Origin: Micromonosporaceae bacterium
GTDB lineage: Bacteria; Actinomycetota; Actinomycetes; Mycobacteriales; Micromonosporaceae
Length of the DNA stretch: 26,346 nt
Reading direction: 5' to 3'
Assembly (NCBI GenBank): GCA_050264675.1
Contig: JBLNGJ010000562.1
Coordinates: forward strand, 1 to 26,346
The notes beneath the pieces were generated by a model. It was not told the origin of the DNA. It made no database searches and saw only the letters and a list, made by a program, of their open reading frames with translations. Made by a program: the position numbers and the translations under genes. Positions 1,358-21,100 of this stretch are shown piece by piece (within the stretch, counting starts at the first letter, position 1; every line of letters begins with the position of its first letter).

Positions 1358-1450
1358 GCGGGGGTGCCGCTACCCCGGGCTTATCCGGACAGACCCGGTG
1401 CGGAGTGGTCTCGCCCGTCCGTGGGTGATGGGCCCCCGAGGCCCCCACGT

Positions 1451-1468
1451 CGGTCGTCAAGACGACCG
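1451..1468. promoter_or_regulatory. Perfect inverted repeat CGGTCGTC-AA-GACGACCG upstream of the two-component operon
   Basis: 8-bp arms with a 2-nt spacer, read directly. The regulatory role is inferred from position. Confidence 0.4.
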
Positions 1469-1535
1469 TCCAATGTTGTGTCGCCATTGAGACATTTCCC
1501 ACCGGCGTTGGTCGGCCGCTGCCATCCTGCTGCCT

Positions 1536-2690: not shown

Positions 2691-3805
2691 CACCGTCGTG
2701 GCCTCTGTGGAGCGCTATGAGCGGGGGGCGTTGCGGGCGGCGATCGTGGTGATGCTCGGTTGGCATCTCTTCGCCGTCCTGCCGACTGCGGTTGGCGGGT
2801 GGCCGTACTACCGCCCGGCCTGGACGGGACTGGCCGTCTGGCTGGTCGATGCGGGTGGTTGGTGTGGTCATCGCGGTGGTGGTGTGGCGTGGCGGCGGCC
2901 GCAGAATCGGTGGCGTCCAGTCGGTGGCGGTGATTGTCCTGGTCGGCGTCGTTGTCGTCGCGTGGGCCAGCCCTACCCGCGCCCCGATGGACCCGTACAG
3001 CTGGGCGTACTCGACCTCGGCCTGGTTTGTGATGGTTGCGGGATGGCGGCTGCGGATCCGGGCGCTGATGTGGTTCCTGGTGGCCAACACGCTGGTCGGC
3101 TTGGCCGCATTGATCGCCTCAGGCAACACCGACCGGGTCAGCGTCGCCCGCTTCGTGATAGTCAGCTACGGCGTGAGCGTGCTTCAGGTCTCCGTGCTAG
3201 TGGGCAGCCGCGTCCTCACGACCGTCGCGCGTCGCACCGCCGAGGCGCAGGAAGCTCAGGCCCGCCTGGCCAACCGGCGGCTCGCCGCCGGCGCCGTTCA
3301 CGAGGCGCGCCGAGCGCGCTTCGACGAAGTTCGGCAGGCGGCCGCGGAGCTCCTCGCAGACCTGGCCGAAGACCGCTTGGACCTCACCAACACGACCACC
3401 CAGCAGCACATGCGTATCGCAGTCTCCCGGCTGCGCCGGCTCATCGTGGAAACCGATGAGGTGCCCGAGCCACTTCAGCACGAACTGCGGGCGTGTGCCG
3501 ACGCGGCGGAGCGGCGTGGAGTCGAGGTGGATCTGCAGGCACCGGTCGGGCACCTGCCCGCGTTGCCGGTGGCCGCACGTCGGGCATTAACCGAGCCCGT
3601 GATCCATGTGCTGGCCGGTGCCCGTACACGGGCCCGGATCACCGTCGTGGCCCGACCGACCGACATCACCGTGGCGGTGGTCGCGGATGCGCCACCGGAT
3701 ACCACCGTCGCTGGTGGTGCCGAAACCGAGTTGACCTTCGACCGCGAAGGAGACGTGCTGTGGGCTCAGACGCGCTGGAACGCCCGGTCACCGTTGCTGT
3801 CATAG
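2683..3805 (+). pseudogene. Second multi-TM sensor-kinase-like protein (degenerate kinase core) with a +1 frameshift at about 2853-2855
   Basis: GTG at 2683 overlaps the HK1 stop. Frame 1 reads VADTVVASVERYERGALRAAIVVMLGW...WLVDA; frame 2 continues VVGVVIAVVVWR...PLQHELRACADAAERRGVEV...RRALTEPV to TAG at 3803-3805. Removing one G from GCGGGTG gives a continuous TM helix. Confidence 0.75.
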
Positions 3806-4461
3806 AGGACATTGACGTCGTTGTCGAGGGCGTCCGGTCGTGGATCGCCAGCGACCCGCAGCGGCGGGCCACCGTCGTGGCGGTCGCCGACACCGTCGAG
3901 GCGATCCTGGACGGACCGGGTCGCGAAGCGGATGTGCTCGTGCTCGACCTCGAACTCGGCGATGTCATGGTCACGCCCCGCGTGGCGGAGCTCAGCGACG
4001 CCGGCTACCGCGTGGTGGTCTACTCCGTGCACGTCGAGCCGCTCGTGGTGAAGGAGGCGCTGGCCGCCGGAGCCTGCGCCTTCCTTGACAAGCGGACGGA
4101 GAAGGCCGAGTTCGTCGACATGATCGTCGACGTCGCCCACGACCGTCCACACGTGACTCAGTCCATGGCCGGCGGCATCCTGCAGAGCGTTGACCTTTCG
4201 GGTCGAGAGCGGGAGGCGCTGCTGCTGCTCTTTCAGGGCATGACCTACGCGTCGATGGCGCGCCGGATGACCAAGCCAGGCGATAGCACACCGATCAGCC
4301 GGGAGACGGCCAAACAGTACGTGGAGCGGGCTCGGGCGAAGCTGGCCGCCACCGGTAGACCCTGCCGGTCGAACTTCGCGCTGCTGGCCCGCTGCATCGA
4401 GCTCGGCCTGATCCGACCGGATCAGGTGGCCGACTACCGATCCGCCGCTCACTCGGAATAG
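3760..4461 (+). CDS. NarL/LuxR-family two-component response regulator
   Basis: Receiver motifs VAVIED, VLVLD (phosphoacceptor), VVVYS and FLDK, then a C-terminal LSGRERE...HTH. GTG at 3760 has AAGGAG 7 nt upstream. The ORF-track start at 3493 is an upstream extension. Confidence 0.9.
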   Translation: MGSDALERPVTVAVIEDIDVVVEGVRSWIASDPQRRATVVAVADTVEAILDGPGREADVLVLDLELGDVMVTPRVAELSDAGYRVVVYSVHVEPLVVKEALAAGACAFLDKRTEKAEFVDMIVDVAHDRPHVTQSMAGGILQSVDLSGREREALLLLFQGMTYASMARRMTKPGDSTPISRETAKQYVERARAKLAATGRPCRSNFALLARCIELGLIRPDQVADYRSAAHSE

Positions 4462-4477
4462 CTTGTCGGCACTTCGT

Positions 4478-4495
4478 GACCTCTGGATGGAGGTC
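4478..4495. promoter_or_regulatory. Inverted repeat GACCTC-N6-GAGGTC upstream of the giant secreted protein gene
   Basis: 6-bp arms read directly in the intergenic region after the response regulator. Function is inferred only. Confidence 0.3.
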
Positions 4496-4592
4496 TATGC
4501 CGATCGCAGGCAATCACGACACGCTGACTCATGCACATGCGCTGTTCTGTGCTGCGCGTGTTTGGGGAGTTGTCGTGCCGGGGAGGGCGGAC

Positions 4593-7500
4593 ATGTTCCA
4601 CGTTGCTCAGCGCTATGTCGCGTGGGTTGCCGGAGTTGTCGTTGCACTGCTTGTCCTGGCGATGCCGGATGTAGCGCATGCGGCTGGCAGTGTGCACCTT
4701 TCCGGGACGGTTACCGACCAAAGCGGCGCCGGCGTTCAAAACGTGTCGGTGACCGCAACGGCGCCGGGCGGCACTACCGTGCTGTTCGGTCCCAGCTTGA
4801 CCGCGGCGAACGGTGCCTACCAGCTTGACGTTGACCCCGGCACTTATGATATCCATTTCACACCCCCGGCGGGCAGCGGCCTGAACTCTATCACGAGCAA
4901 CAATCTGATAGCTCAAGTGGACCAGGTTGTAAGCGTTCAGTTGACGCCGCCCACGCACACTATTTCGGGTGTTGTGCGTGATGGTGCGGGTAATCTGCTG
5001 CCGGCGTTGACGGTGCAATTTCGGCTGGTGAGTACGGACGCCTCGGCCGAGACGGTGACGGATGCCAATGGCCACTACGTGGCGACGTTGAACGCGGGTG
5101 TGTACTATCTCAACGCACTATTTGGCACCGCCCCGCAGCCTCTGGGGTTCGTTAGTGTTAGCCGGCGGGACTCGCCGTCGAGTATGCCGCAGTTCGATGT
5201 CGTTAACGCCGACGTGGTTCAAGACTTCCAGCTGCCCACGACTGTGTTGACGGTGACAGTCAAGGATGGCTTCGGTAACCCGGCGTCGGGGGTAGCGGTG
5301 GGCGCAACCGGTGGGGGGAACTTCGCGCTGACCGCCGGCGGCGTTTCGTTGTATGGAAACAACTCGTTCCGGGGCGGCACGACCAACGCTCTCGGCGTGA
5401 GCACCATCACGCTGTTCAAGACGACCTACCCCACCGCCACGATATGCGCGACTGTGACCGGCAACCAAGTCTGCAACACGACCCCCGTCACCATCACCGG
5501 ACCAACCAACCTACTCTTCCAGTCGGCCTCCCAGGTGCCGCCTGCGCCGACCGGCCTCACGGCAACGACCCCGACCGCGAACGCACCGGCGCTGAGCTGG
5601 AACACCGTGAGCGTCGCGGCGAGTTATCGCGTTTACCGCAGCGGTCAGTTGCTGGGTAGCACCACGACGACGAGCTTCGTCGATAGCGCCCTCGACGCCG
5701 GCGGCTCCTACAGCTACACGGTGACTGCGGTGAGCGCGCTCAACATCGAGAGCCCGGCGTCGATGGCATTTGTGGTCGTCTACACCTCGGGCCCCGCCGT
5801 GACCAACGTCGCCGTAAACCCGAGCACGATATCCGTCGGCCAGACGGCAACACTCAGCGCCACGGTCACCGACGCGGTCGCCAGCGTCGTGGCGGCCGAG
5901 TACTTCGAGAGCGCCGATCCAGGCGAGGGACATGGCCTCGCCATGACAGTCTTCGGCTCGACCACGTCGGTGACGCTGCCGAGCAACCTGGCGCTTGGAC
6001 CGCACACGTTCACGGTCCGGGCCAAGGACAGCCTCGGCAGCTGGACCAGAGGCACGCTGCCATCGGCAACCCTCACTGTCGTGCTTCCCACCCTGAACGG
6101 GCGCGTGCTCAACGGCGCAAACCAGGGCCTCTCCGGCGTGCGCATCGACGTGGTGAGCCCGAGCAACCATTCAAACGTCCTAGCCACCACCACCTCCGGG
6201 TCCACTGGCGACTACTCGGTCAGCGCGTCGCCCGGCACCTACGACGTCATCTACACCCCGACCGGCACCACCTACCAGCCGACGACCAAGACCGCGGTCA
6301 ATCTGACCACCAGCACCACAATCGACGTGGTCCTGGTGTTGGTGCCACGTATCTTCAGCGGCACGGTCAGCGACAAGAACGGCATACCGATTCCCGGCGT
6401 GACCGTACGCCTCAACAACGCCGGCGGGCAGACGTTCAGCACGATCACTGCCTCCGACGGCTCCTTCTCCGTCGACGTGAACCCGGCGACGTACTCGGTG
6501 ACGCTGAGCGGCACCCACACGTTGGCCCCAGCGGCGTTGGTGCCGGCGACGTTCAGCCTGGGCGGCGGCGCCCTCGACCTGACCGACAACGTGGATCAGA
6601 ACTTCACGATCAGCGCCGTTACGGCGACCTTCGTAACGAGGAGCGCGCTGACCGGAGCCACGGTTGGCGGGGTTGCGCTGACGATCTCCACGTCGACCGA
6701 CACCACCGTCTACGCCGGATCCGGTTCGTACGCCGGTGGCTCCAGCTACGGGGCCATGACCGATGCCTCCGGCTCGGTCTCGGTCGTGCTGCTGTCGGGT
6801 AGCCGGTACACGGTGACCGCGGTGCCGCCGACCGGGTCAGGTGTGGTGGCGACCTCGTTCCCGCAGGCCGGCCCGATCGTTGCCGACATCCTCGTACCGC
6901 TGCCGCTCACGGCCGACATCCGCCACTTCACCGGCGCCTTCACTGACAACATCGGTGCCGGGCTTACCGGCGCGACCATCCGGCTGACCGGTCCGCTCGG
7001 TACGTTCCAGGCGACCACCGGCCCCGGCGGTAGCTTCGACGTGGAGGCGGCCGCCGGGACCTACACGTTGACGGTCAACGGAAGCCGACCGTCCGGATCA
7101 GGGCTGCACATCCCGGACACGTTCAGCCTCAGCGGCGCCAGCATCGACATCAGCAGCGCCGACCGGGCGCAGCACCTGACACTGGACGCCGCCACGGTGG
7201 ACGTGACCGCCAAAAGCCCGTTCGACACGAACGTGCCGGACGTCGAGATCCTCATCACCAGCGCTGGCGGCAGTGCGACGCTGTTCCCGGGTGGCTCGTT
7301 CACGGCAACCGCATCCAGTGCGAAGACCACCAATGCCAGCGGCGTGGCGAGCCTCTTCGCCACCAAGGGCCTGACCTACACCACCAAAGCCACACCGGCA
7401 CCCGGCAGCGGCTACCGCGTGACCAACCTCGCCGCGTCGCCCGTCGTCGCTACCAACACCGCGTGGCCGATACCCCTTGCCCGCGATCTGAAGACGTTCA

Positions 7501-9878
7501 CCGGCGTGGTCCGGGACAAGAACGGTGCGGCCGTTACGGGCGCGAACGTGCGCTTGGACGGCAATGAGCAGGACCAGCACTACGTCGCGGTCACCAATGG
7601 TTCGGGCGCCTTCAGCCTGCTGGTCGCCCCGAATGGCGCGTACGCGTTGCAGATCAGCGGAACCGAGGCGGCATCACCCGATGCCTATGTTCCTGACGAC
7701 TTCCTGCTGACCACCACGATCGGCGTAACCGGCGACACCACCCGTGACGTCACCGTCGGCGCCGTCAAGCTCGACATCGTCGCCCGCGACGACCGCCTCA
7801 CCGCCATCGCCGGCGCCGGCATCAGCTTCTCCTCCACCGGCAGCCAGGACGGGTTCGCCGCCAGCAGCACGGGTATCACGCGCACGACCGGGGCCGACGG
7901 CCGCACGTCGCTGATCATGTTGACGGGGACCACGTACACCATCAGCGCCACGCCGCCACCGGGCATGGGTTACATCAACACCACGTTCAACGGCACCTCT
8001 CCCATCACGCAGGACAGCGAAACGATCATCGAGTTCCAGAATCACATCCCGCTCGCGCCCACTGGACTGAGCGCGACGTCACCTACGACGAGCCAGCCGG
8101 CCCTGACCTGGAACCCGATCGCGAACGCGGACCACTACGCCATCTACCGGGGCACCAGCATCGTCGGCACCTCGGCGACCACGTCGTTCACCGATACCAC
8201 CTTGACCGCCGACGGGAGTTATGCCTACCGGGTCAGCGCCGTCAGTGCTGACAACTACGAGGGACCACGGTCAAGCAGCGTGACCGTGCTCTATGACACC
8301 ACCGCGCCAACGGTGGGCGACCCGCAGTTCTCGGCCAACCCCAAGCAGGTCAGTCAGCCGACCGACGTGAACGCGACCGCCTCGGACAGCGGCTCGGGCG
8401 TCGCCGGCGGCGAGTATTTCCTCGGCACAGACGACCCCGGTCAAGGGCAGGCGACAGCCATGGCGTTCGCCGCCGGAACACTGACGGCCACGATCGGCAC
8501 CGACCTCACCGCTGGCTCCTACACCGTGAACGTCCGGGCCCGTGACATCCTGGGCACCTGGTCGGCGATCCGGTCGGCCACACTCATTGTGGCCCGCCCA
8601 GCCGCACCGTCGGGTCTCACGGCCAATACACCAACCAACCAAGACCCCGTCCTGAACTGGGCCGCCTCGCCCGACGCGGCAGCCTACTACGTCTACCGCG
8701 ACGGCACTAAGCTCGTGGATGAACCAACCACGCCAACCTTCACCGACACTGGCCGCACCGATGGTTCCTACAGCTATAGCGTACGGGTGGTGAACGCCTT
8801 CGGCGATCAGAGTGATCTGGCCGGCCCGGTGACCGTGCTGGTCGACAAGCTCGCACCGACGATCAGCTACACGTTGGATCCGACTCCGAACAGCGCACTG
8901 TGGAACAACACCGCGGTTACTGTGACGTTCACCTGTCAGGACACCGGCGGGTCGGGGATCGTGGCCTGCACCACCCCGGTGACGGTCTCCGCCGATACGC
9001 CCGGCCTGGACGTCGTTGGCACCGCCGTCGACGCCGCGGGCAACACTAGGTCCATTCCGGCGACGGTTCACGTTGACCGGACCGCGCCGGTATTGGGTGT
9101 GCCGACCTGGGCCATCAATCCCAAGCCGCTGACGAGTTCCACCACCCTTACGGTCGCGGCGACCGACAACCTCAGCGACGTCGTAGCCGGCGAGTATTAC
9201 ATCGACACTGACCCGGGTGCCGGCGCTGCGATCGCCATGAGCGCCAGTGCTGGCAACCTCTCGGCGACCCTGGGCGCTGCCCTCGGTGTCGGCGTCTATC
9301 AGGTCGGTATTCGGGCCAGGGATGGGGCGGGTAACTGGAGCGCGACGACCACCACGATGCTGGTGGTCTACGACCCGGGCATCACGGTCGGCATAACCGG
9401 CAAGAACAAGAAGGACCTGGTGCCCAGTCTGGCCAACGGTGACGTGCTGCCCGGCCTCACCAGCGTCACGCAGACCGAGGCGGCCGACTATGGCTTCACG
9501 GTCGACTACGCCGGCGGTGTGCTCGATCCGCACAACGACTTCATGTTCACCTACAACACCGGCATCCAGTGCAACTCGCCGTATGGCCAGAACTGTCACA
9601 GCTTCGTCCTGAGCGCCACCAGCTTCGACTGGATGATCATCGATCAGACGAACAGCTCCCGCGGACGGTTCCAGGGTGTCGCGACCGTCACCGTCGACGG
9701 CGTCAGCACGACCAACCCGTTCACCGTGCAGGGCATCGACGGCGACCGGCTCACCCCAGCGGCTAACGACCAGTTCACGCTCAAGATTTACGCTCCTGGG
9801 GCCAACCCGACGACCGCGAGCCCGCTCTACCAAGTCACCGGCACGCTGGCATCCGGCAACAGCGTTCGGGTGCGGTGA
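4593..9878 (+). CDS. Giant secreted multidomain protein (~1760 aa): carboxypeptidase-regulatory-like/prealbumin-fold repeats, FnIII-like repeats and Ig-like domains
   Basis: ATG at 4593 after a GGGAGGG RBS. Signal peptide MFHVAQRYVAWVAGVVVALLVLAMPDVAHA|AG. Repeated (L/I/F)(S/T)GxVxDxxGxx(V/L/I)xGxxV starts and three PxAP(T/S)GL...W...YxxYR...FxD...GSYxY units. Thr/Gly/Val-rich. No catalytic motif or C-terminal anchor seen. Confidence 0.9.
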   Translation: MFHVAQRYVAWVAGVVVALLVLAMPDVAHAAGSVHLSGTVTDQSGAGVQNVSVTATAPGGTTVLFGPSLTAANGAYQLDVDPGTYDIHFTPPAGSGLNSITSNNLIAQVDQVVSVQLTPPTHTISGVVRDGAGNLLPALTVQFRLVSTDASAETVTDANGHYVATLNAGVYYLNALFGTAPQPLGFVSVSRRDSPSSMPQFDVVNADVVQDFQLPTTVLTVTVKDGFGNPASGVAVGATGGGNFALTAGGVSLYGNNSFRGGTTNALGVSTITLFKTTYPTATICATVTGNQVCNTTPVTITGPTNLLFQSASQVPPAPTGLTATTPTANAPALSWNTVSVAASYRVYRSGQLLGSTTTTSFVDSALDAGGSYSYTVTAVSALNIESPASMAFVVVYTSGPAVTNVAVNPSTISVGQTATLSATVTDAVASVVAAEYFESADPGEGHGLAMTVFGSTTSVTLPSNLALGPHTFTVRAKDSLGSWTRGTLPSATLTVVLPTLNGRVLNGANQGLSGVRIDVVSPSNHSNVLATTTSGSTGDYSVSASPGTYDVIYTPTGTTYQPTTKTAVNLTTSTTIDVVLVLVPRIFSGTVSDKNGIPIPGVTVRLNNAGGQTFSTITASDGSFSVDVNPATYSVTLSGTHTLAPAALVPATFSLGGGALDLTDNVDQNFTISAVTATFVTRSALTGATVGGVALTISTSTDTTVYAGSGSYAGGSSYGAMTDASGSVSVVLLSGSRYTVTAVPPTGSGVVATSFPQAGPIVADILVPLPLTADIRHFTGAFTDNIGAGLTGATIRLTGPLGTFQATTGPGGSFDVEAAAGTYTLTVNGSRPSGSGLHIPDTFSLSGASIDISSADRAQHLTLDAATVDVTAKSPFDTNVPDVEILITSAGGSATLFPGGSFTATASSAKTTNASGVASLFATKGLTYTTKATPAPGSGYRVTNLAASPVVATNTAWPIPLARDLKTFTGVVRDKNGAAVTGANVRLDGNEQDQHYVAVTNGSGAFSLLVAPNGAYALQISGTEAASPDAYVPDDFLLTTTIGVTGDTTRDVTVGAVKLDIVARDDRLTAIAGAGISFSSTGSQDGFAASSTGITRTTGADGRTSLIMLTGTTYTISATPPPGMGYINTTFNGTSPITQDSETIIEFQNHIPLAPTGLSATSPTTSQPALTWNPIANADHYAIYRGTSIVGTSATTSFTDTTLTADGSYAYRVSAVSADNYEGPRSSSVTVLYDTTAPTVGDPQFSANPKQVSQPTDVNATASDSGSGVAGGEYFLGTDDPGQGQATAMAFAAGTLTATIGTDLTAGSYTVNVRARDILGTWSAIRSATLIVARPAAPSGLTANTPTNQDPVLNWAASPDAAAYYVYRDGTKLVDEPTTPTFTDTGRTDGSYSYSVRVVNAFGDQSDLAGPVTVLVDKLAPTISYTLDPTPNSALWNNTAVTVTFTCQDTGGSGIVACTTPVTVSADTPGLDVVGTAVDAAGNTRSIPATVHVDRTAPVLGVPTWAINPKPLTSSTTLTVAATDNLSDVVAGEYYIDTDPGAGAAIAMSASAGNLSATLGAALGVGVYQVGIRARDGAGNWSATTTTMLVVYDPGITVGITGKNKKDLVPSLANGDVLPGLTSVTQTEAADYGFTVDYAGGVLDPHNDFMFTYNTGIQCNSPYGQNCHSFVLSATSFDWMIIDQTNSSRGRFQGVATVTVDGVSTTNPFTVQGIDGDRLTPAANDQFTLKIYAPGANPTTASPLYQVTGTLASGNSVRVR
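5538..8845 (+). repeat. Three FnIII-like protein repeats in the giant protein (starting at about 5538, 8049 and 8598)
   Basis: PPAPTGLTATTPTANAPALSW, PLAPTGLSATSPTTSQPALTW and PAAPSGLTANTPTNQDPVLNW, each followed by YxxYR and FxD...GSYxY. Confidence 0.8.
5898..9240 (+). repeat. Three EY(F/Y)-x(2-4)-DPGxG domains in the giant protein (Glu codons at 5898, 8412 and 9192)
   Basis: AAEYFESADPGEGHGLAM, GGEYFLGTDDPGQGQATAM and AGEYYIDTDPGAGAAIAM, each followed by a VRA(K/R)DxxGxW-like strand. Confidence 0.8.
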
Positions 9879-10155: not shown

Positions 10156-12297
10156 TCACAGCAGATCGGCCAGCAGGGCCGCGGCCCGCTGCGCGCCGTC
10201 GGTTTCGACCGGACGATAGGTCGGCTCCCGGGCCATCTCAACGGCAATCGCCTCGGCCAGAACGTCGGGGGCCAGGTCGTCGTAGTCGAGGCGGCGCCCG
10301 GCCCGGTAGCGGTCGAGCCGGCGCGCTACGTGGAAGTTCTGTTCGAAGTGGTGCCGTAGCGGGATGTAGATAAAGGGCCGGCCGGCGGCGGTCAGCTCCA
10401 TGCAGGTCGTCAGTCCACCTTGGACAATGGCCAGGTCGCTCGCGGCCAAGTGCCGGTACAGGTCGGGCACGAACGCCCGCACCTCGAGGCCCGCCCTCGT
10501 GGGGATGGATGCGAGGTCGATGCGCGGCCCGGTGACCACGACCATGCGCAGCCCCGGCACCCGTGCCGCCGCTGGTTCGAAGGCCGCCATGACACGGCGC
10601 AGCAGGTGTCCGCCGACGCCGGAGCCGCCGACCGTCACCACGCAGATCCGCTCGTCGGGCCGGTAGCCCAAGTCGGTCCGCAGCGCCGTCCGGTCGGCGA
10701 CCATGGTTGGGTCGAACCCGGTCACGTATCCGGCGAATTCGTAGTGCTCGCGGGTCCACTCGCGGATCAGCGGCAGATTGGGGCCGAAGCGGTCGTCCAC
10801 AATGTCGTCCGGGTTGCCGACGAAGATGGCGCGGTCGCGCAGGCGGGGCAGTCGGGCGATGTGCTCGATCATCTCGGCGTTGTAGTCGGCTGCGACAAGC
10901 GCCTCACGCGCGTCACCGTCGGGCATCGGCAGGTAGCCGACGAAGTCGGTGAACCAGGCATAGGCGAACCGCTTGAGTTCGGGATTCTCATGCAGGAAAT
11001 GATCGACCTCCCACGCCTCGTCGCCGATGACGAGGTCGTAGTCGGTCTCGGTCACGAGGTCGTGGAAGACCATGAAGTTGGCCAGCAACACTTCGTCCAT
11101 ACGCCGCAGCGCCTCGAAGCAATGCAGGTCGTGCTCGCCGGCCTCGCTCTCGATGTGCGCGGACTCGTTGGCCAGCAGCCGGCTGGCCGGGTGGACGTGT
11201 TCCCCGGCCGTGTCCAGCACCTTCGTCACCGGATGCTGCGCGAGCCAGTCGATGACGAGGTCGGGGCGTCGTTGCCGCAGGGCCGCAGCGATCGCGATAT
11301 CCCGGCGAGCGTGGCCCAGGCCGATCGGCGAGGAGATGTAGAGGACCCGCTTAGGCCGGTGCGACCAGCGTGACCAGGTTTGGCGCCGGGCCGGTGCGCC
11401 CAGTCGCGCGGCGAAGTCCCGGATCAGCAGATTGATCCTCACCGGGTCGCGGGTCAGCGGAATGTGTCCGCCCCCGTGCACCGTGACCAATTCACCGCCA
11501 GTGAGCTCGGCCAGGATCTCGCTGCGCCGCACCGGACTGACCCGGTCGTCGTCGCCGTGTATGAGCAGGACCGGCCTGGTGATCCGCCGGCACCAGTCGG
11601 CGAGCGTGTCCGCGTCCGGCCAGGCCGCGTGGGCGTCGGCGATCAGCACCTCGGCCGATGTCTCACGACCCCAGCCGACGGCGTCATCGACCTGTTTGGT
11701 GGAGTGGCGCTCGGAGAAGCACTGTCCAAAAAAGAACCAGAGGAAGTCATCGTAGTTTTCCCGCCAGTAGTCGTGGTTGTACTTCGCCCAATGCTCGGCC
11801 GGGTCCGCCGCCACCTGCGGCACCCGGGACGGTTCGAGCGTGGTGGGCGCCGCGTCGAGAGCCGAGTGGGCCACCCGGGCGGCACTGGCACTGCCCAGGG
11901 CCACCGACGCTCCGATGAGGACGGTTCCGTGCACCCGATGCGGGTGGTTGGCAGCGAGATCGAGTGCCCAGTTCGCGGCCTTGGACAGACCAACCAGCAC
12001 GGCCCGGTCGGTGCCGCTAGCGTCGAGCACCTTCAGTGCGTACGCGACCTGGGCCTCCTGCCGATAGGCGGCGGGCTCGAGCGGTCGGTCGGAGCGGCCG
12101 TTGCCGGGGCCGTCGTAGGTGACCAGGCGATGGTTGCGGGCGAGATATGGAATCTGCGCCTTCCACAGGCGCTTGTGAATGATCGTCCAGGTCGGCATCA
12201 GCAGGAGGGTCGGCTCGCCCTCGCCGTACACCTCGTAATGGACCTTGATTCCGCGGTGCTCGACGAAGCCCTCCCCGTCCGCCACTCGTGCCCGCAT
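10156..12297 (-). CDS. Alpha/beta-fold hydrolase fused to a GT-B glycosyltransferase (GT28/MurG C-terminal-like)
   Basis: N-half: YDGPGNGRS, nucleophile elbow GLSKA, HGDDD and GGGH. C-half: SSPIGLGHARRD, VTVGGSGVG, DLAIVQGGLTTCMEL and HFEQ. One uninterrupted 713-aa ORF with a GAGGG RBS. Confidence 0.85.
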   Translation of the reverse strand: MRARVADGEGFVEHRGIKVHYEVYGEGEPTLLLMPTWTIIHKRLWKAQIPYLARNHRLVTYDGPGNGRSDRPLEPAAYRQEAQVAYALKVLDASGTDRAVLVGLSKAANWALDLAANHPHRVHGTVLIGASVALGSASAARVAHSALDAAPTTLEPSRVPQVAADPAEHWAKYNHDYWRENYDDFLWFFFGQCFSERHSTKQVDDAVGWGRETSAEVLIADAHAAWPDADTLADWCRRITRPVLLIHGDDDRVSPVRRSEILAELTGGELVTVHGGGHIPLTRDPVRINLLIRDFAARLGAPARRQTWSRWSHRPKRVLYISSPIGLGHARRDIAIAAALRQRRPDLVIDWLAQHPVTKVLDTAGEHVHPASRLLANESAHIESEAGEHDLHCFEALRRMDEVLLANFMVFHDLVTETDYDLVIGDEAWEVDHFLHENPELKRFAYAWFTDFVGYLPMPDGDAREALVAADYNAEMIEHIARLPRLRDRAIFVGNPDDIVDDRFGPNLPLIREWTREHYEFAGYVTGFDPTMVADRTALRTDLGYRPDERICVVTVGGSGVGGHLLRRVMAAFEPAAARVPGLRMVVVTGPRIDLASIPTRAGLEVRAFVPDLYRHLAASDLAIVQGGLTTCMELTAAGRPFIYIPLRHHFEQNFHVARRLDRYRAGRRLDYDDLAPDVLAEAIAVEMAREPTYRPVETDGAQRAAALLADLL

Positions 12298-12359
12298 CGC
12301 AGTCGCCCTCTCTGCTCAGCCTGCCTGGCCCTACGCCGACAGCCCTCGGCGGGAGTCGC

Positions 12360-12410
12360 TCGGTCGACCGACCGAATTGGCGCAGGCTATCATTCGGTCG
12401 ACCGACCGAA
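12360..12410. promoter_or_regulatory. Two palindromic TetR-type operators, TCGGTCG-AC-CGACCGA (12360-12375) and TTCGGTCG-AC-CGACCGAA (12393-12410)
   Basis: A 17-nt exact direct repeat with a 34-bp period; each copy is itself an inverted repeat. It lies between the divergent hydrolase-GT and TetR genes and overlaps a possible TCGACC-N18-TATCAT promoter. Confidence 0.8.
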
Positions 12411-12437
12411 CAAGGGGCGCCGACGGGAGCTTTCTGC

Positions 12438-13058
12438 GTGGCTCGAGACACTTCTGACAAGATCATGGAGGCAGCCCGAGACTGCCTGCTCGCCGACGGC
12501 TATGTCAACCTGTCCACGCGCAAGGTGGCCGAGCGCGCCGGTGTGCCGCTAAGCCAGATCCACTACCACTTCGGCGGCAAGCAGGGCATGGTGCTGGCGG
12601 TGCTGGACCGGGAGAACCAACGCCTGGTCGGTCGACAGCGGCAGATGTACGCGGCCAGCGTCCCGCTGTGGAAGCGGTATGAGCAGGCGTGCGACTTCCT
12701 CGACGACGATCTCACCTCGGGCTACGTCCGGGTGCTGCAGGAGATGATCGCCGCCGGCTGGTCGGCGGACGCGGTGGCCGAGCAAGTGCTGGTCATGCTC
12801 AAGGCCTGGATTGACATCCTCGAGGCGGTGGCCGCCGAGGCCGACGCTCGGCTGGGTCCACTCGCGCCCTTCACGGCGGGTGAGCTCGCCACACTCATCG
12901 GCCTTGCCTTCCTCGGCGGCGAAGCGATGATCCTGCTGGGTGACCAGGGTTGGACCCAGCGGGTGCGTACTTCGCTGCGCCGGGTCGGCGAGTTCGTCCG
13001 TACCTGGGAGGAGGGCGTCAGCTCGCCACCGTTGCCGGCGGCGCCGGTTCGGGCGTGA
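12438..13058 (+). CDS. TetR/AcrR-family transcriptional regulator
   Basis: N-terminal HTH DKIMEAARDCLLADGYVNLSTRKVAERAGVPLSQIHYHFGGK. GTG at 12438 has GGGAG 8 nt upstream. Confidence 0.92.
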   Translation: MARDTSDKIMEAARDCLLADGYVNLSTRKVAERAGVPLSQIHYHFGGKQGMVLAVLDRENQRLVGRQRQMYAASVPLWKRYEQACDFLDDDLTSGYVRVLQEMIAAGWSADAVAEQVLVMLKAWIDILEAVAAEADARLGPLAPFTAGELATLIGLAFLGGEAMILLGDQGWTQRVRTSLRRVGEFVRTWEEGVSSPPLPAAPVRA

Positions 13059-13593
13059 CCGGAACGTGTTGCGGCTGCAAGTGGATCCGCTTCAAGGAGC
13101 GCTGGAACAGCGGGTGTGCTTGCCCACCCGGCATGGCTACGCCGAGTTCGCCCGCGGCCGCGGCCGTGCCGGCGCCGCAGCCGGTGACGTGGCCCTCCAA
13201 CACATTGACGGTGATCGCGTCGATGTCCAGCGTGAGGGCCAGGGCGAGCTCGAGGATGGGCACCTGGGCGCCGGCCACGTCGAGGTAGACCCGCGGCTGC
13301 TGGCTGGTCTGCAGTGTGTGGTTGGCGACGACGACCGAGGCGGTCGCACCGGGGACGCCGCGGGTCTGCTCGCACGCTTTCAGGATCGCCTGCTGCTTGC
13401 GCCAGGCCTGCAGGACCAGGCCGCCGATCGGCAGGTCGAGCAGGCTGGCGATGGCGGTGGCGACCTGCCGGGTCAGGCCTGGTACGCCGTGGCTGAGCAG
13501 TCCCAACGCCCCGGCCCGCTGCTCCAGCTGCCGGTTGATCTGATCGGCCCGGTCGGCTGGGCGCTCGAAGAGCAGTTCCGCGACGGTGGTCAT
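13018..13593 (-). CDS. Hypothetical protein (191 aa, soluble, helical N-half and beta-rich C-half)
   Basis: ATG at 13593 with a GGAGAG RBS and an ATGA overlap with the upstream gene's stop. Protein-like sequence MTTVAELLFE...LLDLPIGGLVLQAWRKQ...; the upstream part of the 611-aa track ORF is a shadow frame. Confidence 0.75.
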   Translation of the reverse strand: MTTVAELLFERPADRADQINRQLEQRAGALGLLSHGVPGLTRQVATAIASLLDLPIGGLVLQAWRKQQAILKACEQTRGVPGATASVVVANHTLQTSQQPRVYLDVAGAQVPILELALALTLDIDAITVNVLEGHVTGCGAGTAAAAGELGVAMPGGQAHPLFQRSLKRIHLQPQHVPVTPEPAPPATVAS

Positions 13594-14999
13594 GGCGAGG
13601 TCCTCTCCGTCCAGGTGTGGCTGGCGGTGCCGGGAAGAAGCAGCGCCGAGACCGCGATGTGCGGGCCGGCCATGCGGATGACGTCGGTCGGGGTGGCCGG
13701 CGCGATGGTGACCAGCGCCGCCGGAGCGGCCGGCGCCGGGCGACCGCGCCGGGCCCGGCGTCGCACCGACCGCAGCGCGAGCGCCGCCAGGACCACCAGC
13801 AGCAGCCCGAGCACCGCCCAGGGCAGGAGCGAGCGCACCTGCGCCGCCAGGTCCCGGTTCGGCGGGATGGTCTCCGGGCCCGGCGGGTTCACGACCCCGA
13901 CGTCCGGTGTCGGCTCGACCACGGAGGCGCAGACCGCGAGCGTGGGGTACTGGGTGTCGGCCTTGATGGCGGGGTCGTCGGCCGGGACGGCGGGTCGCCG
14001 TTGTTCGAGGGTCAGGCTCCATCCGGACGCATCGGAGGAGTCGAACGGCTGGCCGGGCAGGCTCATCGTGACGGTCGAGAACGAGTCCCACCCGTTGCTG
14101 TCGAAGCGACCGTTGGGGTCCACAGTGAACGGCGCCGTCGCTCCGGCGACGAGCACGCCGTTCGGGCAGGTGAGAAACATCTGCCCAACCCGGTGGAGAT
14201 CGCAGACCGGCGTGGCGAACAGCTCGTAGCAGAATGGTGCCGGGTCCGGCGGCAGCACGAGGGCAGGTCCGCGGACGACGGTGGTGTCCAACCCCGACCG
14301 GCTCGCACACACGGCGTAGGTGAACTCTGGCATGGGGAGGAAGCCGCCGTCGGACTCGCGCATCAGCCCGAAGACGCTCCACCGCGCGAGTGCCGAGTCG
14401 GGCAGGCTCGCCACCACGGTCTGGTCCGACGTCTTGCCCGGATCCTCGGTGGTCCGAAAACCGCCACCGGTCAGCCGCTCGCCGCGCGGGCAGCTGACCT
14501 GCGTCTCGGTCACCGACTTGCCGAACGTCTGCGATGTCAGGTACGAGCGGCTCAACCATTGGGGATCGGCGACGCAGGCGACGTAGACCTCGGCCGCTGG
14601 ATCCTTGCCGACCGGCTTCTCGACTGGGCGCACCTCCACGGTCCATGAGTCGACCACCGCCGCGTCCGGGGCGGGTTCGCCGTTGGCCAAGGACGGGAAG
14701 CTGCTCATGACCTTCTCGGCCTGGATGAGCTGGTAGCCACCGCTGACCAGCTGCTCGCCCGGCTGGCAGCTGGCCGTAGCCCGCTCGAGGCCCGGCTGCG
14801 CCGGCTGGGTTGACACGTGCCGGCGGATGACCGTCGGCTCGGCCACCTGCCAACGCGCCGGCGCGATCGTCCCGCCGCCATCAACCGGGCCGCCGGGCGA
14901 CGCAACGGGCGCGGCCACGAACCCCAGAAACCCGGCCAAAACCGCCAGCGCGACCGTCCGGCCGAGCCAGCGGCCGCGGCGAACGTCAAGCGTGCTCAT
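13590..14999 (-). CDS. Exported, C-terminally membrane-anchored protein with three Cys-containing repeats
   Basis: N-terminal signal-like segment (RRGRW followed by a hydrophobic stretch). Repeats SCQPGEQLVSGGY, SCPRGERLTGGGF and TCPNGVLVAGA, each closed by (A/V)C(V/A). C-terminal TM LLPWAVLGLLLVVLAALAL followed by RSVRRRARRGR. ATG at 14999 with a GGGAGA RBS. Confidence 0.75.
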   Translation of the reverse strand: MSTLDVRRGRWLGRTVALAVLAGFLGFVAAPVASPGGPVDGGGTIAPARWQVAEPTVIRRHVSTQPAQPGLERATASCQPGEQLVSGGYQLIQAEKVMSSFPSLANGEPAPDAAVVDSWTVEVRPVEKPVGKDPAAEVYVACVADPQWLSRSYLTSQTFGKSVTETQVSCPRGERLTGGGFRTTEDPGKTSDQTVVASLPDSALARWSVFGLMRESDGGFLPMPEFTYAVCASRSGLDTTVVRGPALVLPPDPAPFCYELFATPVCDLHRVGQMFLTCPNGVLVAGATAPFTVDPNGRFDSNGWDSFSTVTMSLPGQPFDSSDASGWSLTLEQRRPAVPADDPAIKADTQYPTLAVCASVVEPTPDVGVVNPPGPETIPPNRDLAAQVRSLLPWAVLGLLLVVLAALALRSVRRRARRGRPAPAAPAALVTIAPATPTDVIRMAGPHIAVSALLLPGTASHTWTERTSP

Positions 15000-15177
15000 G
15001 TCGATCTCCCCGGGGGTGATGACGGAGGCGCTCCTGGAGGAGATCACGGCCGAGCGGATTGCGATAGCGCCGAACCGCCACTGATGTGCTTCCGACAGAT
15101 ACCGTCCAGCTGCCCGGCCGTGGCGGTGCGGCGAAAACAGCTTTGCATGCGGCCGAGCCGGCTGATGTGATCAGGAC

Positions 15178-16449
15178 ATGCCGGCCCGGTTCACCCTGAC
15201 CAGACTGCTGCCACCACCAGGGTTGGCCCGCGCCATCGCGCTCCAGTCGGCGGTGATCGCTGTCGGTGGTGGCACCTTCCTCACCGGCAGCGTCGTGTTC
15301 TTCACCCACGTGCTCGGGCTCAGCCCGGTGCAGATCGGTGTCGGGCTCTCCCTGGCCGGCCTGATCAGCCTGGCCACGTCGCTGCCACTGGGCAGCCTGG
15401 CCGACCGGGTGGGCGGCCAGCGGGCCTGGGTGATCGGCGCCCTGGTCGAGGCGGCGGGCTTCGCCGCGTACCCGTTGATCCGGTCGTTTCTCGGCTTCGC
15501 GCTCGTCATGATGGTCACCGCGGCGGCCGACTCGTTCGCCAGTAGCGGTCGGACGATCTACACCGTCGACGCGCTGCCACCCGACGGGCGGGTCCGGGCG
15601 ATGGCGTTCGCCCGGTCGTATCTCAACGTGGGTTTCACCGTGGGTGCCGGCGTGGGCGCGGCCGCCCTCGCCATCAGCTCCACCTCCGCCCTGGTCGGCA
15701 TCGTGCTGCTGAACGCGGCCGTGCTGGTCGTCAACGCGTTCATGGTGGCCCGGCTGCCCGCCGCGCCGATCGTGCACCACGAACAGGTCCGCCGCTCACA
15801 GTTGGCCGTGCTGAGGGACCGCCCCTACGTGGTGCTCTGCCTGGTCATGGGCGTCATCTGGTTCCACGGCGTGATCTTCGCCGAGATCATTCCACTATGG
15901 GCGATCACGCATACCGATGCGCCCAAGCCCATTCTCGGCGCGCTCTTCGCGCTCAACACCGTGCTCGCCGTCGCGCTGCAGGTGCCGGCGGCGCGCGGCG
16001 CCGACTCACTCGCCGGCACCGCCCGGCTGTTGCGCCGGGCCGCGCTCGCCTCGGCGCTCGCCTGCCCGGTGGCCGCGTTCGCCGGAATGACGGCCGGCGC
16101 ATTGACCGTGGCCGCGCTCGGCCTGGCCGTGGTTCTGGTGACGACGACCGAGCTGTGGAACTCGGCCGCCCAGTGGTTCATCCAGACCGACGTGCCACCC
16201 GCCGGCCAGCGGGGCGCCTACGTCGGGCTGGGTCGCACGGTCGGCTCCGCCGCCCGGATGGTGGCCCCGGCGGGGCTCACCCTGCTCGCGATCCAGACGG
16301 GCGGTTGGGGCTGGTGGGTCATCGCGAGCATCTTCGTGGGCGCCGCCGTCCTGGCCGGACCGGCGGTTGCCTGGGTCGCCCGTACGCCGAGGATCGGCCG
16401 GTCGACCGCCGCGGACGAGGAGCTGGTCGCGGCCGTACCGGCCCATTAG
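15178..16449 (+). CDS. MFS transporter
   Basis: 423 aa with about 12 hydrophobic segments and MFS motif A-like GSLADRVGGQR. Confidence 0.9.
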   Translation: MPARFTLTRLLPPPGLARAIALQSAVIAVGGGTFLTGSVVFFTHVLGLSPVQIGVGLSLAGLISLATSLPLGSLADRVGGQRAWVIGALVEAAGFAAYPLIRSFLGFALVMMVTAAADSFASSGRTIYTVDALPPDGRVRAMAFARSYLNVGFTVGAGVGAAALAISSTSALVGIVLLNAAVLVVNAFMVARLPAAPIVHHEQVRRSQLAVLRDRPYVVLCLVMGVIWFHGVIFAEIIPLWAITHTDAPKPILGALFALNTVLAVALQVPAARGADSLAGTARLLRRAALASALACPVAAFAGMTAGALTVAALGLAVVLVTTTELWNSAAQWFIQTDVPPAGQRGAYVGLGRTVGSAARMVAPAGLTLLAIQTGGWGWWVIASIFVGAAVLAGPAVAWVARTPRIGRSTAADEELVAAVPAH

Positions 16450-16466: not shown

Positions 16467-17024
16467 TCAGTGGTGCCAGGGCAGCTGGACCGCCGGCTGC
16501 GGCACCCGGCCGGCGAGCAGCTCGGTCAGCAACCCGACCAGGCCGTACGGGTAGATGGTCTCGGTCGTCGCGACCAGCTCATCCACCGTCCACCAGCGGT
16601 GGCCGGCGTGGTGTCGGCGTTCCCGCGCCTCCATCCGGCTGATGTCGATGTCGTGCGCGTCGACGCGGTGGCAGAAGAAGTCATCCCGGAAAAGGCCGTT
16701 GGCCCAGCCGAGCTCGGCGTGACCGGTGGCGAACGCGACCGGCCGGCCCAGCTGATCACCGGTCACGGCGAGCCCGGTCTCCTCGTACAGTTCCCGCGCC
16801 GCGGCCTGGGACAGCGATTCGCCGCCGTGCACACCGCCGCCGGGCGTCACCCAGCCGTGGCTCGGCTGGCCCGGGTCGGCCGGTGCAGAAGCGTTGCGGT
16901 CGACATGGAACCGCAGCAGCAGGATGCGCCCGGTCTCGTCCAGCAGCAGCACCCGGGCGGAACGGCGAACGTACGGTTCCTGGTCGGGCACCGGCGTCGG
17001 GTCACTCGGCCCGGATGTCGTCAA
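16467..17024 (-). CDS. NUDIX hydrolase
   Basis: Complete Nudix box GGVHGGESLSQAAARELYEETGL, preceded by RRSARVLLLD. The TTG at 17024 overlaps the upstream stop (TTGA); an alternative start is GTG at 16991. Confidence 0.88.
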   Translation of the reverse strand: MTTSGPSDPTPVPDQEPYVRRSARVLLLDETGRILLLRFHVDRNASAPADPGQPSHGWVTPGGGVHGGESLSQAAARELYEETGLAVTGDQLGRPVAFATGHAELGWANGLFRDDFFCHRVDAHDIDISRMEARERRHHAGHRWWTVDELVATTETIYPYGLVGLLTELLAGRVPQPAVQLPWHH

Positions 17025-19414: not shown

Positions 19415-19421
19415 CCAGGAC

Positions 19422-21050: not shown

Positions 21051-21100
21051 GGCCGACCTCCCGCGGTGTGGGACGTGCGGAGACCCTCAGTATGCGCTCT

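What the first reader, a model, noticed from the sequence alone, without database searches (positions are those of the whole stretch)
10156..12297. Serine hydrolase-glycosyltransferase fusion under dedicated TetR control
Seen: one polypeptide with an apparently complete Ser-Asp-His set (GLSKA rather than GxSxG, HGDDD, GGGH) and a full GT-B module, standing alone and divergent from a TetR gene. Known: GT-B enzymes glycosylate lipids and small molecules, and TetR ligands are often the substrate of the divergent enzyme. I know no characterised enzyme with this architecture. Inference: a two-step unmask-then-glycosylate (or glycosylate-then-acylate) enzyme for an inducing small molecule, possibly a detoxification or resistance route.
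Basis: partly seen in the sequence, partly recalled or inferred. Interest (0 to 1): 0.66.

Follow-up and report, generated by a model that had tools for sequence, protein, structure and literature searches.

The report
TetR-controlled hydrolase-glycosyltransferase fusion enzyme
One 713-residue protein joins an apparently working esterase-type hydrolase to an apparently working sugar-transferring enzyme and sits next to its own repressor; it belongs to a large, widespread family of soil bacteria that nobody has studied and that most likely modifies a small molecule in two steps.

Summary
The Ser105-Asp251-His278 triad is in canonical positions. So are GT1-type residues: His329, Asp426 and a QGG..E634..E652-Q653 donor motif.

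A TetR gene (12438-13058) lies divergent from it. The 140-bp spacer holds two copies of the palindrome TTCGGTCG-NN-CGACCGAA, which occur nowhere else in the 4.6-Mb assembly.

The fusion is not an oddity of this genome. At least 589 species genomes carry it (Actinomycetota, also Chloroflexota and others), and the catalytic residues are kept. In 51 of 80 named genomes a TetR homologue lies directly upstream, and 26 also carry the same operator. Where TetR is missing, the upstream co-directional gene is often an Rv2258c-like SAM methyltransferase, a P450 or a luciferase-like monooxygenase. In some genomes the thiol methyltransferase MddA is inserted.

No scaffold or sugar-biosynthesis genes were seen in the annotated loci. 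I found no characterised member and no paper.

Best reading: a ligand-induced, two-step small-molecule modifier (ester or lactone cleavage plus UDP-sugar glycosylation). Substrate and order of steps are unknown.

First readers of this scan noted the same fusion in about eight other genomes.

The parts
10156..12297 (-). Coding sequence of the 713-aa alpha/beta-hydrolase-glycosyltransferase fusion (P0001), stop codon included
   Evidence: ORF and translation; Pfam domains; full-length homologues
11398..12297 (-). Alpha/beta-hydrolase domain (aa 1-300). Ser105 = 11983-11985, Asp251 = 11545-11547, His278 = 11464-11466. A P35-T36-W37 loop replaces the usual HG motif. The lid carries a conserved H-S199-T-K201 motif.
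   Evidence: Pfam; model secondary structure; VIA Z 31.3 to Est816 and about 30 to aryl esterases and perhydrolases; conservation counts; codon positions
11350..11397 (-). Basic linker (aa 301-316; R310 and R314 conserved). This is the lowest-confidence stretch of the model.
   Evidence: pLDDT 64 for aa 301-310; alignment A1
10159..11349 (-). GT-B glycosyltransferase domain (aa 317-713). SSPIGLGH329..RD333 loop (His329 = 11311-11313), Asp426-Glu427 after strand 422-426 (11017-11022), GGSG 557-560, and the donor motif Q626-G-G-L-T-T..E634 (10396-10398)..H650-F-E652-Q653.
   Evidence: Pfam; profile against PDB; domain model with pLDDT 93; VIA Z 26.5 CalG1, 26.3 YojK, 25.7 SpnG; conservation
12298..12437 (.). 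Divergent 140-bp control region between the fusion gene and tetR
   Evidence: Sequence; start of tetR fixed by alignment with orthologues
12359..12376 (.). Operator copy 1, CTCGGTCGACCGACCGAA (one mismatch to the palindrome)
   Evidence: the same motif lies upstream of tetR in other genomes
12393..12410 (.). Operator copy 2, TTCGGTCGACCGACCGAA (perfect 8-2-8 palindrome), 34 nt from copy 1
   Evidence: 2 matches against 0.05 expected; the only sites in the assembly
12364..12393 (+). Promoter-like site (TCGACC-18 nt-TATCAT) facing tetR, lying between and over the operators
   Evidence: Consensus scan only; weak evidence
12438..13058 (+). TetR-family repressor, 206 aa from GTG 12438 (GGGAG lies about 10 nt upstream). 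The ligand-binding half is 62-73% identical to orthologues in Catellatospora, Cryptosporangium and Nonomuraea.
   Evidence: Pfam TetR_N; alignment A4; sequence

Best explanation
The locus is a self-contained inducible module. With no ligand, the TetR dimer binds the two TTCGGTCG-NN-CGACCGAA operators and shuts off both itself and the fusion gene. A small, probably hydrophobic, compound releases it. The cytoplasmic fusion protein then acts on that compound or a close derivative with two active sites. A Ser105-His278-Asp251 hydrolase of the esterase/lactonase type cleaves an ester, lactone or thioester. A GT1-like inverting glycosyltransferase, with His329 as base backed by Asp426, transfers a sugar from a common UDP-sugar to a hydroxyl or other nucleophile. 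The net effect is conversion of the inducer into a polar glycoside, that is, inactivation, detoxification or conditioning of an exogenous compound or signal. Shown here: the architecture, the conserved catalytic residues, the fold relationships, the TetR pairing and the operator. Inferred: repression and induction, that both domains work on one molecule, the order of the steps, and the UDP-sugar donor. Unknown: the compound.
For: Both domains are intact and their catalytic residues are conserved over distant homologues. The full-length model is confident with a fixed domain arrangement (pTM 0.94). The hydrolase is nearest to Est816 AHL lactonase, PcaD enol-lactonase and aryl esterases. The GT is nearest to small-molecule GT1 enzymes: CalG1, YojK/YjiC, SpnG and a mite detoxification UGT score Z 25-26.5, against MurG 22.6 and MGD1 22.1. 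A TetR homologue lies directly upstream in 51 of 80 named genomes, 39 in the same operon and 12 divergent. The operator is conserved in 26 of these 80 named loci, and in loci, and is unique to this locus in the assembly. A stand-alone GT homologue sits in a tetR-GT operon. The genes that replace or join TetR upstream are small-molecule tailoring enzymes: an Rv2258c-like SAM methyltransferase within 3 kb in 17 of 80 loci (11 directly upstream), a P450 in 4, a luciferase-like monooxygenase in 1, and MddA in 6. The loci annotated by precomputed Pfam show no PKS/NRPS/terpene core or NDP-sugar pathway genes.
Against: No substrate, ligand or activity has been measured for any member. The protein is 55-80% identical across orders and even phyla. 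The acceptor half of the GT and the hydrolase lid carry many invariant charged residues. That fits one specific, conserved and perhaps polar or endogenous metabolite better than a promiscuous xenobiotic enzyme. The usual HG oxyanion motif is replaced by P-T-W. Alpha/beta hydrolases can also be acyltransferases, so 'hydrolysis' is an assumption. Structural Z-scores for small-molecule and lipid-linked GT-B enzymes differ by only about 4 units. Distant members below 50% identity lack TetR.
Confidence: 0.55

Rival explanations
1. Biosynthetic acyl-sugar or glycolipid synthase. The alpha/beta domain acts as an acyltransferase (as RhlA, PhaG or mycolyltransferases do). The GT domain attaches the sugar, giving an RhlA-RhlB-like single-chain maker of a surfactant or acylated glycoside.
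For: The domain order alpha/beta fold plus GT-B mirrors the RhlA/RhlB pair (general knowledge). Tandem extra hydrolase domains or genes occur in some relatives. The fixed domain arrangement could channel an intermediate.
Against: No RhlA, RhlB or PhaG entry appears among the listed NCBIfam, PDB or fold matches. The nearest hydrolase folds are true esterases and lactonases. Autoregulated tetR-enzyme operons without acyl-donor or sugar-pathway genes are more typical of inducible catabolic or detoxification modules. The partners are a P450 and methyltransferases, not lipid-synthesis genes.
Confidence: 0.13
2. Membrane-lipid or cell-envelope enzyme. The GT glycosylates a lipid acceptor (diacylglycerol, polyprenyl phosphate or similar, as in GT28 MurG/MGD) and the hydrolase is a lipase that remodels it.
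For: The only Pfam GT hit is Glyco_tran_28_C, and MurG is the best NCBIfam GT hit. MurG and MGD1 still score Z about 22. The linker is basic. In some genomes the integral-membrane methyltransferase MddA is co-transcribed. ABHD6 and phospholipase A are among the hydrolase fold matches.
Against: There is no signal peptide or membrane segment. GT1 small-molecule enzymes rank above the lipid GTs. The distribution is patchy: 45 of 401 genomes in the phylum and 2 of 9 in the sampled sister family of the same order, which is odd for an envelope function. Soluble P450 and O-methyltransferase-like partners do not fit. All MurG and MGT family cut-offs are missed by a wide margin.
Confidence: 0.1
3. The two domains do not share a substrate. 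Either the hydrolase domain is a regulatory or scaffolding appendage, or the GT-B domain is a nucleotide-sugar hydrolase like PseG rather than a transferase.
For: A stand-alone GT under TetR exists without the hydrolase, so the GT can work alone. PseG gives a weak N-terminal hit and Z 18.6.
Against: The triad is conserved through more than 50% sequence divergence, and a Ser-to-Cys swap keeps a nucleophile, which argues for catalysis. The fusion is kept in at least 589 genomes. Transferase-type His329/Asp426 and the E-Q sugar motif are conserved. PseG is far down the list.
Confidence: 0.08
4. The fusion is an annotation or assembly artefact, or a decaying gene.
For: The genome is a fragmented MAG (742 contigs).
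Against: The frame is uninterrupted and codon bias is normal. Hundreds of co-linear homologues exist in complete genomes. The full-length model has high confidence.
Confidence: 0.01

Closest known systems
GT1-family small-molecule glycosyltransferases (CalG1, SpnG, Bacillus YjiC/YojK, OleD/OleI and the MGT macrolide-inactivating group)
   Same: GT-B fold with Z 25-26.5 over about 330-340 residues. A His sits at the end of the first strand-loop (GLGH329), an Asp after the fourth N-domain strand (D426), and the C-terminal nucleotide-sugar motif ends in E-Q. Some of these (MGT, OleD) inactivate a compound by glycosylation.
   Different: Only about 17% identity. Only the donor half matches by sequence. 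The MGT model scores 34 bits against a cut-off of 260. The acceptor half is a family of its own with many invariant charged residues. The domain is fused to a hydrolase, which none of these enzymes is.
MJ1255/VC2487-type (Glyco_trans_1_3, 'GT28-like') uncharacterised glycosyltransferases of archaea and bacteria
   Same: These are the best Swiss-Prot model matches for the GT half: MM_1636, MA_0452 and MK0977, E 2e-17 to 5e-15, TM by hit 0.70-0.77. There are weak TIGR00661 and PF13528 hits.
   Different: TIGR00661 scores 36 bits against a cut-off of 196. Those proteins have a single domain and no known function, so the match gives no information on activity.
Esterase/lactonase branch of the alpha/beta hydrolases (Est816 AHL lactonase 5egn, PcaD 3-oxoadipate enol-lactonase 2xua, Pseudomonas fluorescens aryl esterase/perhydrolase)
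   Same: Same fold at Z 30-31 and rmsd about 2 A over about 250 residues. The Ser-Asp-His order is the same. Best sequence matches: 5egn 3e-21 and PcaD model 86 bits.
   Different: 20-26% identity. The PcaD model is far below its cut-off of 256. The HG oxyanion motif is replaced by P-T-W. The nucleophile elbow is G-L-S-K-A. The lid has its own invariant H-S-T-K motif. A subset uses Cys.
TetR-repressed single-enzyme or pump modules (TetR/TetA, QacR/QacA and similar)
   Same: A TetR gene lies next to, or in an operon with, its target, with paired palindromic operators in the promoter region.
   Different: The target is a two-domain enzyme rather than a pump. The ligand is unknown. No close characterised TetR exists, and only the HTH region matches PDB entries.
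RhlA-RhlB rhamnolipid pair
   Same: An alpha/beta-fold protein combined with a GT-B enzyme working on one product (general knowledge).
   Different: Neither half gave a specific match. The comparison is an analogy of architecture only.

Membership tests
Alpha/beta-hydrolase fold serine hydrolases (Pfam Abhydrolase_1/6) | Fold: eight-stranded sheet with a helical lid; Pfam score above the gathering cut-off | tested here: met
   Abhydrolase_1 72.2 bits against 25.8; Z 31 to solved esterases
Alpha/beta-hydrolase fold serine hydrolases (Pfam Abhydrolase_1/6) | Nucleophile elbow small-x-Nu-x-small directly after strand 5 | tested here: met
   G103-L-S105-K-A107 follows strand 99-104. The position is Ser in 43 and Cys in 6 of 51 sequences.
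Alpha/beta-hydrolase fold serine hydrolases (Pfam Abhydrolase_1/6) | Acid after strand 7 and His after strand 8 | tested here: met
   D251 in 49/51 and H278 in 50/51 sequences, located after strands 243-248 and 269-273
Alpha/beta-hydrolase fold serine hydrolases (Pfam Abhydrolase_1/6) | HG-type oxyanion-hole motif after strand 3 (common, not universal) | tested here: not met
   The motif is P35-T36-W37 instead. Backbone amides could still form the hole, but this was not testable here.
PcaD 3-oxoadipate enol-lactonase (TIGR02427) | Score at or above the curated cut-off | tested here: not met
   85.7 bits against 255.85, and only the first 120 residues align
Alpha/beta-fold macrolide esterases (EstT, EstX and related NCBIfam models) | Score at or above the curated cut-off | tested here: not met
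   27-45 bits against cut-offs of 420-600
GT1-type inverting GT-B glycosyltransferases | GT-B two-Rossmann fold | tested here: met
   Models with pLDDT 93-95; Z 26.5 to CalG1
GT1-type inverting GT-B glycosyltransferases | Catalytic His at the first strand-loop, with a partner Asp after N-domain strand 4 | tested here: met
   H329 in 50/52 and D426 in 51/52 sequences. Equivalence to the GT1 dyad is inferred from position, not from a residue-level superposition.
GT1-type inverting GT-B glycosyltransferases | C-terminal nucleotide-sugar motif (..[HQ]-G-G..S/T..E.. and terminal D/E-Q) | tested here: met
   Q626-G-G-L-T-T..E634 and E652-Q653 are near-invariant and align to YjiC-type UGT 7vlb
GT1-type inverting GT-B glycosyltransferases | Membership of the MGT macrolide glycosyltransferase subfamily (TIGR01426 cut-off) | tested here: not met
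   34.2 bits against 260
GT28 (MurG / MGDG synthase) | C-terminal domain Glyco_tran_28_C | tested here: met
   42.3 bits against 22
GT28 (MurG / MGDG synthase) | N-terminal Glyco_transf_28 domain, or the murG equivalog score | tested here: not met
   No N-terminal GT28 Pfam hit. murG scores 39 bits against 250.
MJ1255/VC2487 glycosyltransferase subfamily (TIGR00661) | Score at or above the curated cut-off | tested here: not met
   36.3 bits against 195.9, although these are the best Swiss-Prot fold matches
TetR-family repressors | N-terminal TetR_N helix-turn-helix | tested here: met
   40.8 bits against 24
TetR-family repressors | Palindromic operator in its own or the divergent promoter | tested here: met
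   Two copies at 12359-12410 against 0.05 expected by chance. They are unique in the assembly and conserved in orthologous loci. Binding itself was not tested.
TetR-family repressors | Ligand-induced release from DNA | not testable with these tools
   Needs EMSA, thermal shift or a reporter assay
RhlA/RhlB-type glycolipid synthases | Specific sequence or fold similarity to RhlA and RhlB | tested here: inconclusive
   Neither appears in the listed best matches. No direct pairwise comparison was possible because no RhlA or RhlB sequence was available from a tool.

The most novel reading that the evidence does not exclude
The family is a widespread, inducible two-step inactivation system for a common soil ester or lactone compound, either a signal or an antibiotic. 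The hydrolase opens the ester or lactone. The fused glycosyltransferase at once caps the freed hydroxyl, so that ring opening cannot reverse. This would be a new enzymatic logic for quenching or resistance. The TetR protein and its operator would also be a ready-made biosensor for the unknown compound.
Probability: 0.2. Interest if true: 0.75.

Novelty: new variant of a known kind. Interest (0 to 1): 0.5.

Why it matters
Both halves are familiar enzyme classes. Their conserved fusion is not described in any source I could search, and the same holds for its dedicated repressor, a defined 18-bp operator and the recurrent methyltransferase or P450 partners. The family is present in at least 589 species genomes across several soil phyla.

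The regulator-operator pair gives a direct experimental handle. A reporter built on it could identify the inducer, and so the substrate, of a large orphan family. If the enzyme inactivates an antibiotic or a signalling lactone, it would add a new two-step mechanism to the environmental resistome or to quorum quenching. If it acts on an endogenous metabolite, it would point to an unknown glycosylated compound shared by many soil bacteria. It may also be useful as a one-protein deacylation-glycosylation biocatalyst.

Tried and rejected
1. Macrolide esterase plus macrolide glycosyltransferase. NCBIfam lists both kinds of model, but every score is 5-20 times below its cut-off, so this is superfamily similarity only.

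2. MurG/GT28 membership. Only the C-terminal donor domain matches, and the murG equivalog fails.

3. PseG-like sugar-nucleotide hydrolase. The match is weak: Z 18.6 and E 4e-4.

4. RhlA-RhlB analogy. No specific match was found. I kept it only as a low-probability rival.

5. A catalytically dead domain. Rejected by the conservation counts.

6. Assembly artefact. Rejected.

7. The MFS transporter at 15178-16449 as part of the regulon. No operator copy lies near it, and a minus-strand gene intervenes.

8. Six literature searches found nothing on this architecture or on COG4671/MJ1255/PF13528 function. The original MddA paper is not held, and the 2017 MddA paper says nothing on gene context.

9. 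The search for related loci with the wide alignment A2 failed for lack of a conserved stretch. It worked with A1.

10. Contexts of the stand-alone homologues P0137, P0181 and P0240 lay on contigs too short to tell anything.

11. PDB search with the TetR protein matched mostly the DNA-binding region, so it gives no hint about the ligand.

12. I could not inspect model coordinates, so the distance and orientation between the two active sites remain unknown.
Full report
THE GENE. On the minus strand, window:10156-12297 is one open frame of 713 codons. Its codon-position GC is typical of this 70% GC genome (GC3 0.86), and GAGAGGG lies about 10 nt before the ATG. Orthologues begin with the same MRAR... 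N-terminus. Pfam finds Abhydrolase_1 at aa 43-281 (7e-20) and Glyco_tran_28_C at aa 553-694 (1e-10). The own assembly is a MAG of 4.6 Mb in 742 contigs, 88% complete, and carries one copy.

STRUCTURE. AlphaFold2 was run on a 55-sequence alignment. It gives pLDDT 94.9 and pTM 0.94 for the whole chain. Only the basic linker (aa 301-310) has low confidence, pLDDT 64. The high pTM points to a defined arrangement of the two domains. I could not inspect coordinates, so the geometry between the active sites is unknown.

The N-terminal half is a canonical alpha/beta hydrolase. Z is 31.3 to Est816 (an AHL lactonase) and about 30 to aryl esterases and perhydrolases, PcaD-like hydrolases and many others. 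Ser105 follows strand 99-104, Asp251 follows strand 243-248 and His278 follows strand 269-273.

The C-terminal half was also folded alone (pLDDT 93). It is a GT-B enzyme nearest to GT1 small-molecule transferases:
- CalG1 Z 26.5, YojK 26.3, SpnG 25.7, YjiC 25.3, a spider-mite UGT 25.2.
- MurG 22.6, MGD1 22.1, PseG 18.6.

By sequence profile only the donor half matches solved structures: YjiC-type 3e-10, MurG 1e-7, OleD. Among Swiss-Prot models the best matches are uncharacterised archaeal MJ1255-type transferases. Every curated NCBIfam model is missed by a wide margin, including PcaD, BioH, the macrolide esterases, murG, MGT, MJ1255 and PseG.

CONSERVATION. Hundreds of full-length homologues of about 710 aa, at 66-80% identity, are on record. 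All are named only 'alpha/beta hydrolase' or given COG names.
- The exhaustive representative search gives 1128 50%-identity clusters at E<1e-30.
- One Atlas cluster alone has 2426 members.
- In a sample of 401 genomes of the phylum, 45 carry it, in 30 of 249 genera.
- A scan of one genome per species found at least 589 carriers.

The 80 best are Micromonosporaceae, Streptosporangiaceae, Nocardioidaceae, Propionibacteriaceae, Nitriliruptorales, Acidimicrobiia and Solirubrobacterales/Gaiellaceae. They also include Ktedonobacterales and Chloroflexia, Longimicrobiales, Eremiobacterota and Dormibacterota, at 57-76% identity. Such identity across phyla suggests horizontal spread; this is an inference.

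In a 55-sequence alignment reaching down to 32% identity, the counts are as follows:
- Nucleophile: Ser 43, Cys 6, other 2.
- Acid: Asp 49 of 51.
- His: 50 of 51.
- GT residues H329, R332, D333, D426, E427, D451, G557-G558, G627-G628, T631, E634 and E652: present in at least 50 of 52.

His329 lies at the end of the first strand-loop (SSPIGLGH). Asp426 lies at the end of strand 422-426. These are the positions of the GT1 base and its partner; this is inferred from position. The Q-G-G..E634 and E652-Q653 motifs correspond to the nucleotide-sugar motif.

Two peculiarities stand out. P-T-W replaces the HG oxyanion motif, and the lid carries an invariant H-S-T-K motif. Some relatives are ABH(Ser)-ABH(Cys)-GT triple-domain proteins with both triads intact, or have extra stand-alone hydrolase paralogues upstream.

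REGULATION. The divergent ORF is a TetR-family gene. Alignment with orthologues places its start at GTG 12438, giving 206 aa. Its ligand-binding half is 62-73% identical to those of Catellatospora, Cryptosporangium and Nonomuraea, which suggests one conserved ligand.

The 140-bp spacer holds CTCGGTCGACCGACCGAA (12359-12376) and the perfect palindrome TTCGGTCGACCGACCGAA (12393-12410), 34 nt apart. That is two matches against 0.05 expected by chance. They are the only sites in the whole assembly at one mismatch or fewer. A TATCAT -10-like hexamer lies between them (weak evidence).

The same palindrome, usually in two copies 34-55 nt apart, lies upstream of tetR or in the divergent spacer in many orthologous loci. 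Over 80 named genomes:
- A homologue of this TetR lies directly upstream of the fusion in 51, on the same strand in 39 (often overlapping it) and divergent in 12.
- The operator is present in 26; 24 of these have a detected upstream TetR, at 45% identity or more to this one.

In the earlier 30-locus sample the TetR was adjacent in 18. One of those 30, L025, comes from the unpublished genome G120. L025 is also one row of alignments A1 and A2. No claim here rests on it alone. A stand-alone GT homologue (47% identity) sits in a tetR-GT operon without any hydrolase.

OTHER PARTNERS. In Catellatospora and Cryptosporangium, and in Catelliglobosispora, Dactylosporangium and one Actinoplanes, a gene for MddA lies between tetR and the fusion and overlaps or abuts its start. 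MddA is methanethiol S-methyltransferase (NF045656, 327 bits against a cut-off of 270). Two more genomes have it just downstream. The window's genome has no close MddA.

Where no TetR is found, the co-directional gene directly upstream is an Rv2258c-like SAM methyltransferase in 11 genomes. That methyltransferase lies within 3 kb in 17 of the 80. The upstream gene is a cytochrome P450 in 4 and a luciferase-like monooxygenase in 1. Large STAND-type regulators (BTAD/AAA_16, AAA_16-GerE, cyclase-AAA_16-TPR) recur within a few kb. These are abundant in such genomes, so their significance is untested. One distant member is followed by a PIG-L deacetylase. The loci annotated by precomputed Pfam show no PKS, NRPS or terpene synthase and no NDP-sugar pathway.

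INTERPRETATION. The evidence is: an autoregulated tetR-enzyme module with a private operator; a GT nearest to small-molecule GT1 enzymes; an esterase/lactonase-type hydrolase; partners that are classic small-molecule tailoring enzymes; and no scaffold or sugar-biosynthesis genes. The best-supported reading is a ligand-induced, two-step small-molecule modifier that cleaves an ester, lactone or thioester and transfers a sugar from a common UDP-sugar. I put this at about 0.55.

The order of the steps, the donor and the compound are unknown. One point argues against a broad xenobiotic role: the very high conservation and the many invariant charged residues in the acceptor half and the lid fit a single specific compound, possibly an endogenous one. 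The rivals are acyl-sugar or glycolipid synthesis with the alpha/beta domain as acyltransferase (0.13), a lipid or envelope function (0.10), independent or non-transferase domains (0.08) and an artefact (0.01).

COMPARISON AND NOVELTY. It works like a GT1 transferase joined to an esterase or lactonase, but it is a member of no curated family below the superfamily level (see the membership table). Searches of PDB, Swiss-Prot models, NCBIfam and the paper library found no characterised protein with this architecture. Databases hold thousands of copies under generic names, so the gene is not new as a sequence. The fusion, its regulator-operator pair and its partners are undescribed. I therefore rate it a new variant of a known kind, with interest 0.5.

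First readers of this scan noted the same fusion in about eight other genomes, some with TetR or methyltransferase neighbours. I tested those neighbour claims here on independent loci.

Noticed in passing
L034:7246-7998 (Catellatospora), L035:7234-8004 (Cryptosporangium); also L064, L066, L069, L071, L098, L120: A gene for the membrane enzyme MddA (methanethiol S-methyltransferase, above the NCBIfam cut-off) is co-transcribed with the fusion gene, lying between tetR and the fusion or just downstream. This hints at a link to thiol chemistry. It is absent from this window.
   Followed up: partly
L081, L082, L088, L103, L110, L111, L124, L133, L135, L140, L143 (about 1850-2995 in each); L073, L074, L076, L083: In genomes without the upstream TetR, an Rv2258c-like SAM methyltransferase (11 loci) or a cytochrome P450 (4 loci) sits directly upstream on the same strand as the fusion gene.
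   Followed up: partly
P0004, P0028 (about 1000 aa); L023, L026, L027, L028, L100, L101, L121: Variants have two hydrolase domains in tandem before the GT: the first with a Ser nucleophile, the second with Cys (T-H-C-H-S). Others have stand-alone hydrolase paralogues upstream. Both triads are intact.
   Followed up: partly
window 4476-9878 (+): An 1800-aa protein is built of CarboxypepD_reg, Big_1, SdrD_B and fn3-like repeats, probably a surface or secreted protein. It is convergent with the fusion gene.
   Followed up: no
window 17021-25100: An aromatic-acid-CoA type cluster: an 866-aa FAD monooxygenase plus Old-Yellow-Enzyme fusion (which resembles 2-aminobenzoyl-CoA monooxygenase/reductase, from general knowledge), an AMP-dependent ligase, a PaaX-type regulator and an acyl-CoA dehydrogenase.
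   Followed up: no
window 13590-15047 (-): A 485-aa ORF with good codon bias and no Pfam hit. It has an N-terminal hydrophobic segment, repeated Cys-containing modules and a C-terminal membrane anchor-like stretch.
   Followed up: no
L034, L035, L037, L042, L043, L054, L056, L057, L059; L039, L041: Large STAND-type regulators (BTAD/AAA_16, AAA_16-GerE, adenylate cyclase-AAA_16-TPR) recur within a few kb of the fusion gene, even near distant members. It was not tested whether this exceeds their high background frequency.
   Followed up: no
L084, L091, L095, L096, L104, L108, L113, L120, L121, L135, L141: Homologues at 57-62% identity occur in Chloroflexota, Gemmatimonadota, Eremiobacterota and Dormibacterota MAGs. 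That is as close as many actinobacterial copies and suggests transfer between phyla. No tree was made.
   Followed up: no
window 321-4461: An APH-type kinase, a histidine-kinase ATPase fragment and a response regulator with a sigma-70 region-4-like output lie upstream of the repeat protein.
   Followed up: no
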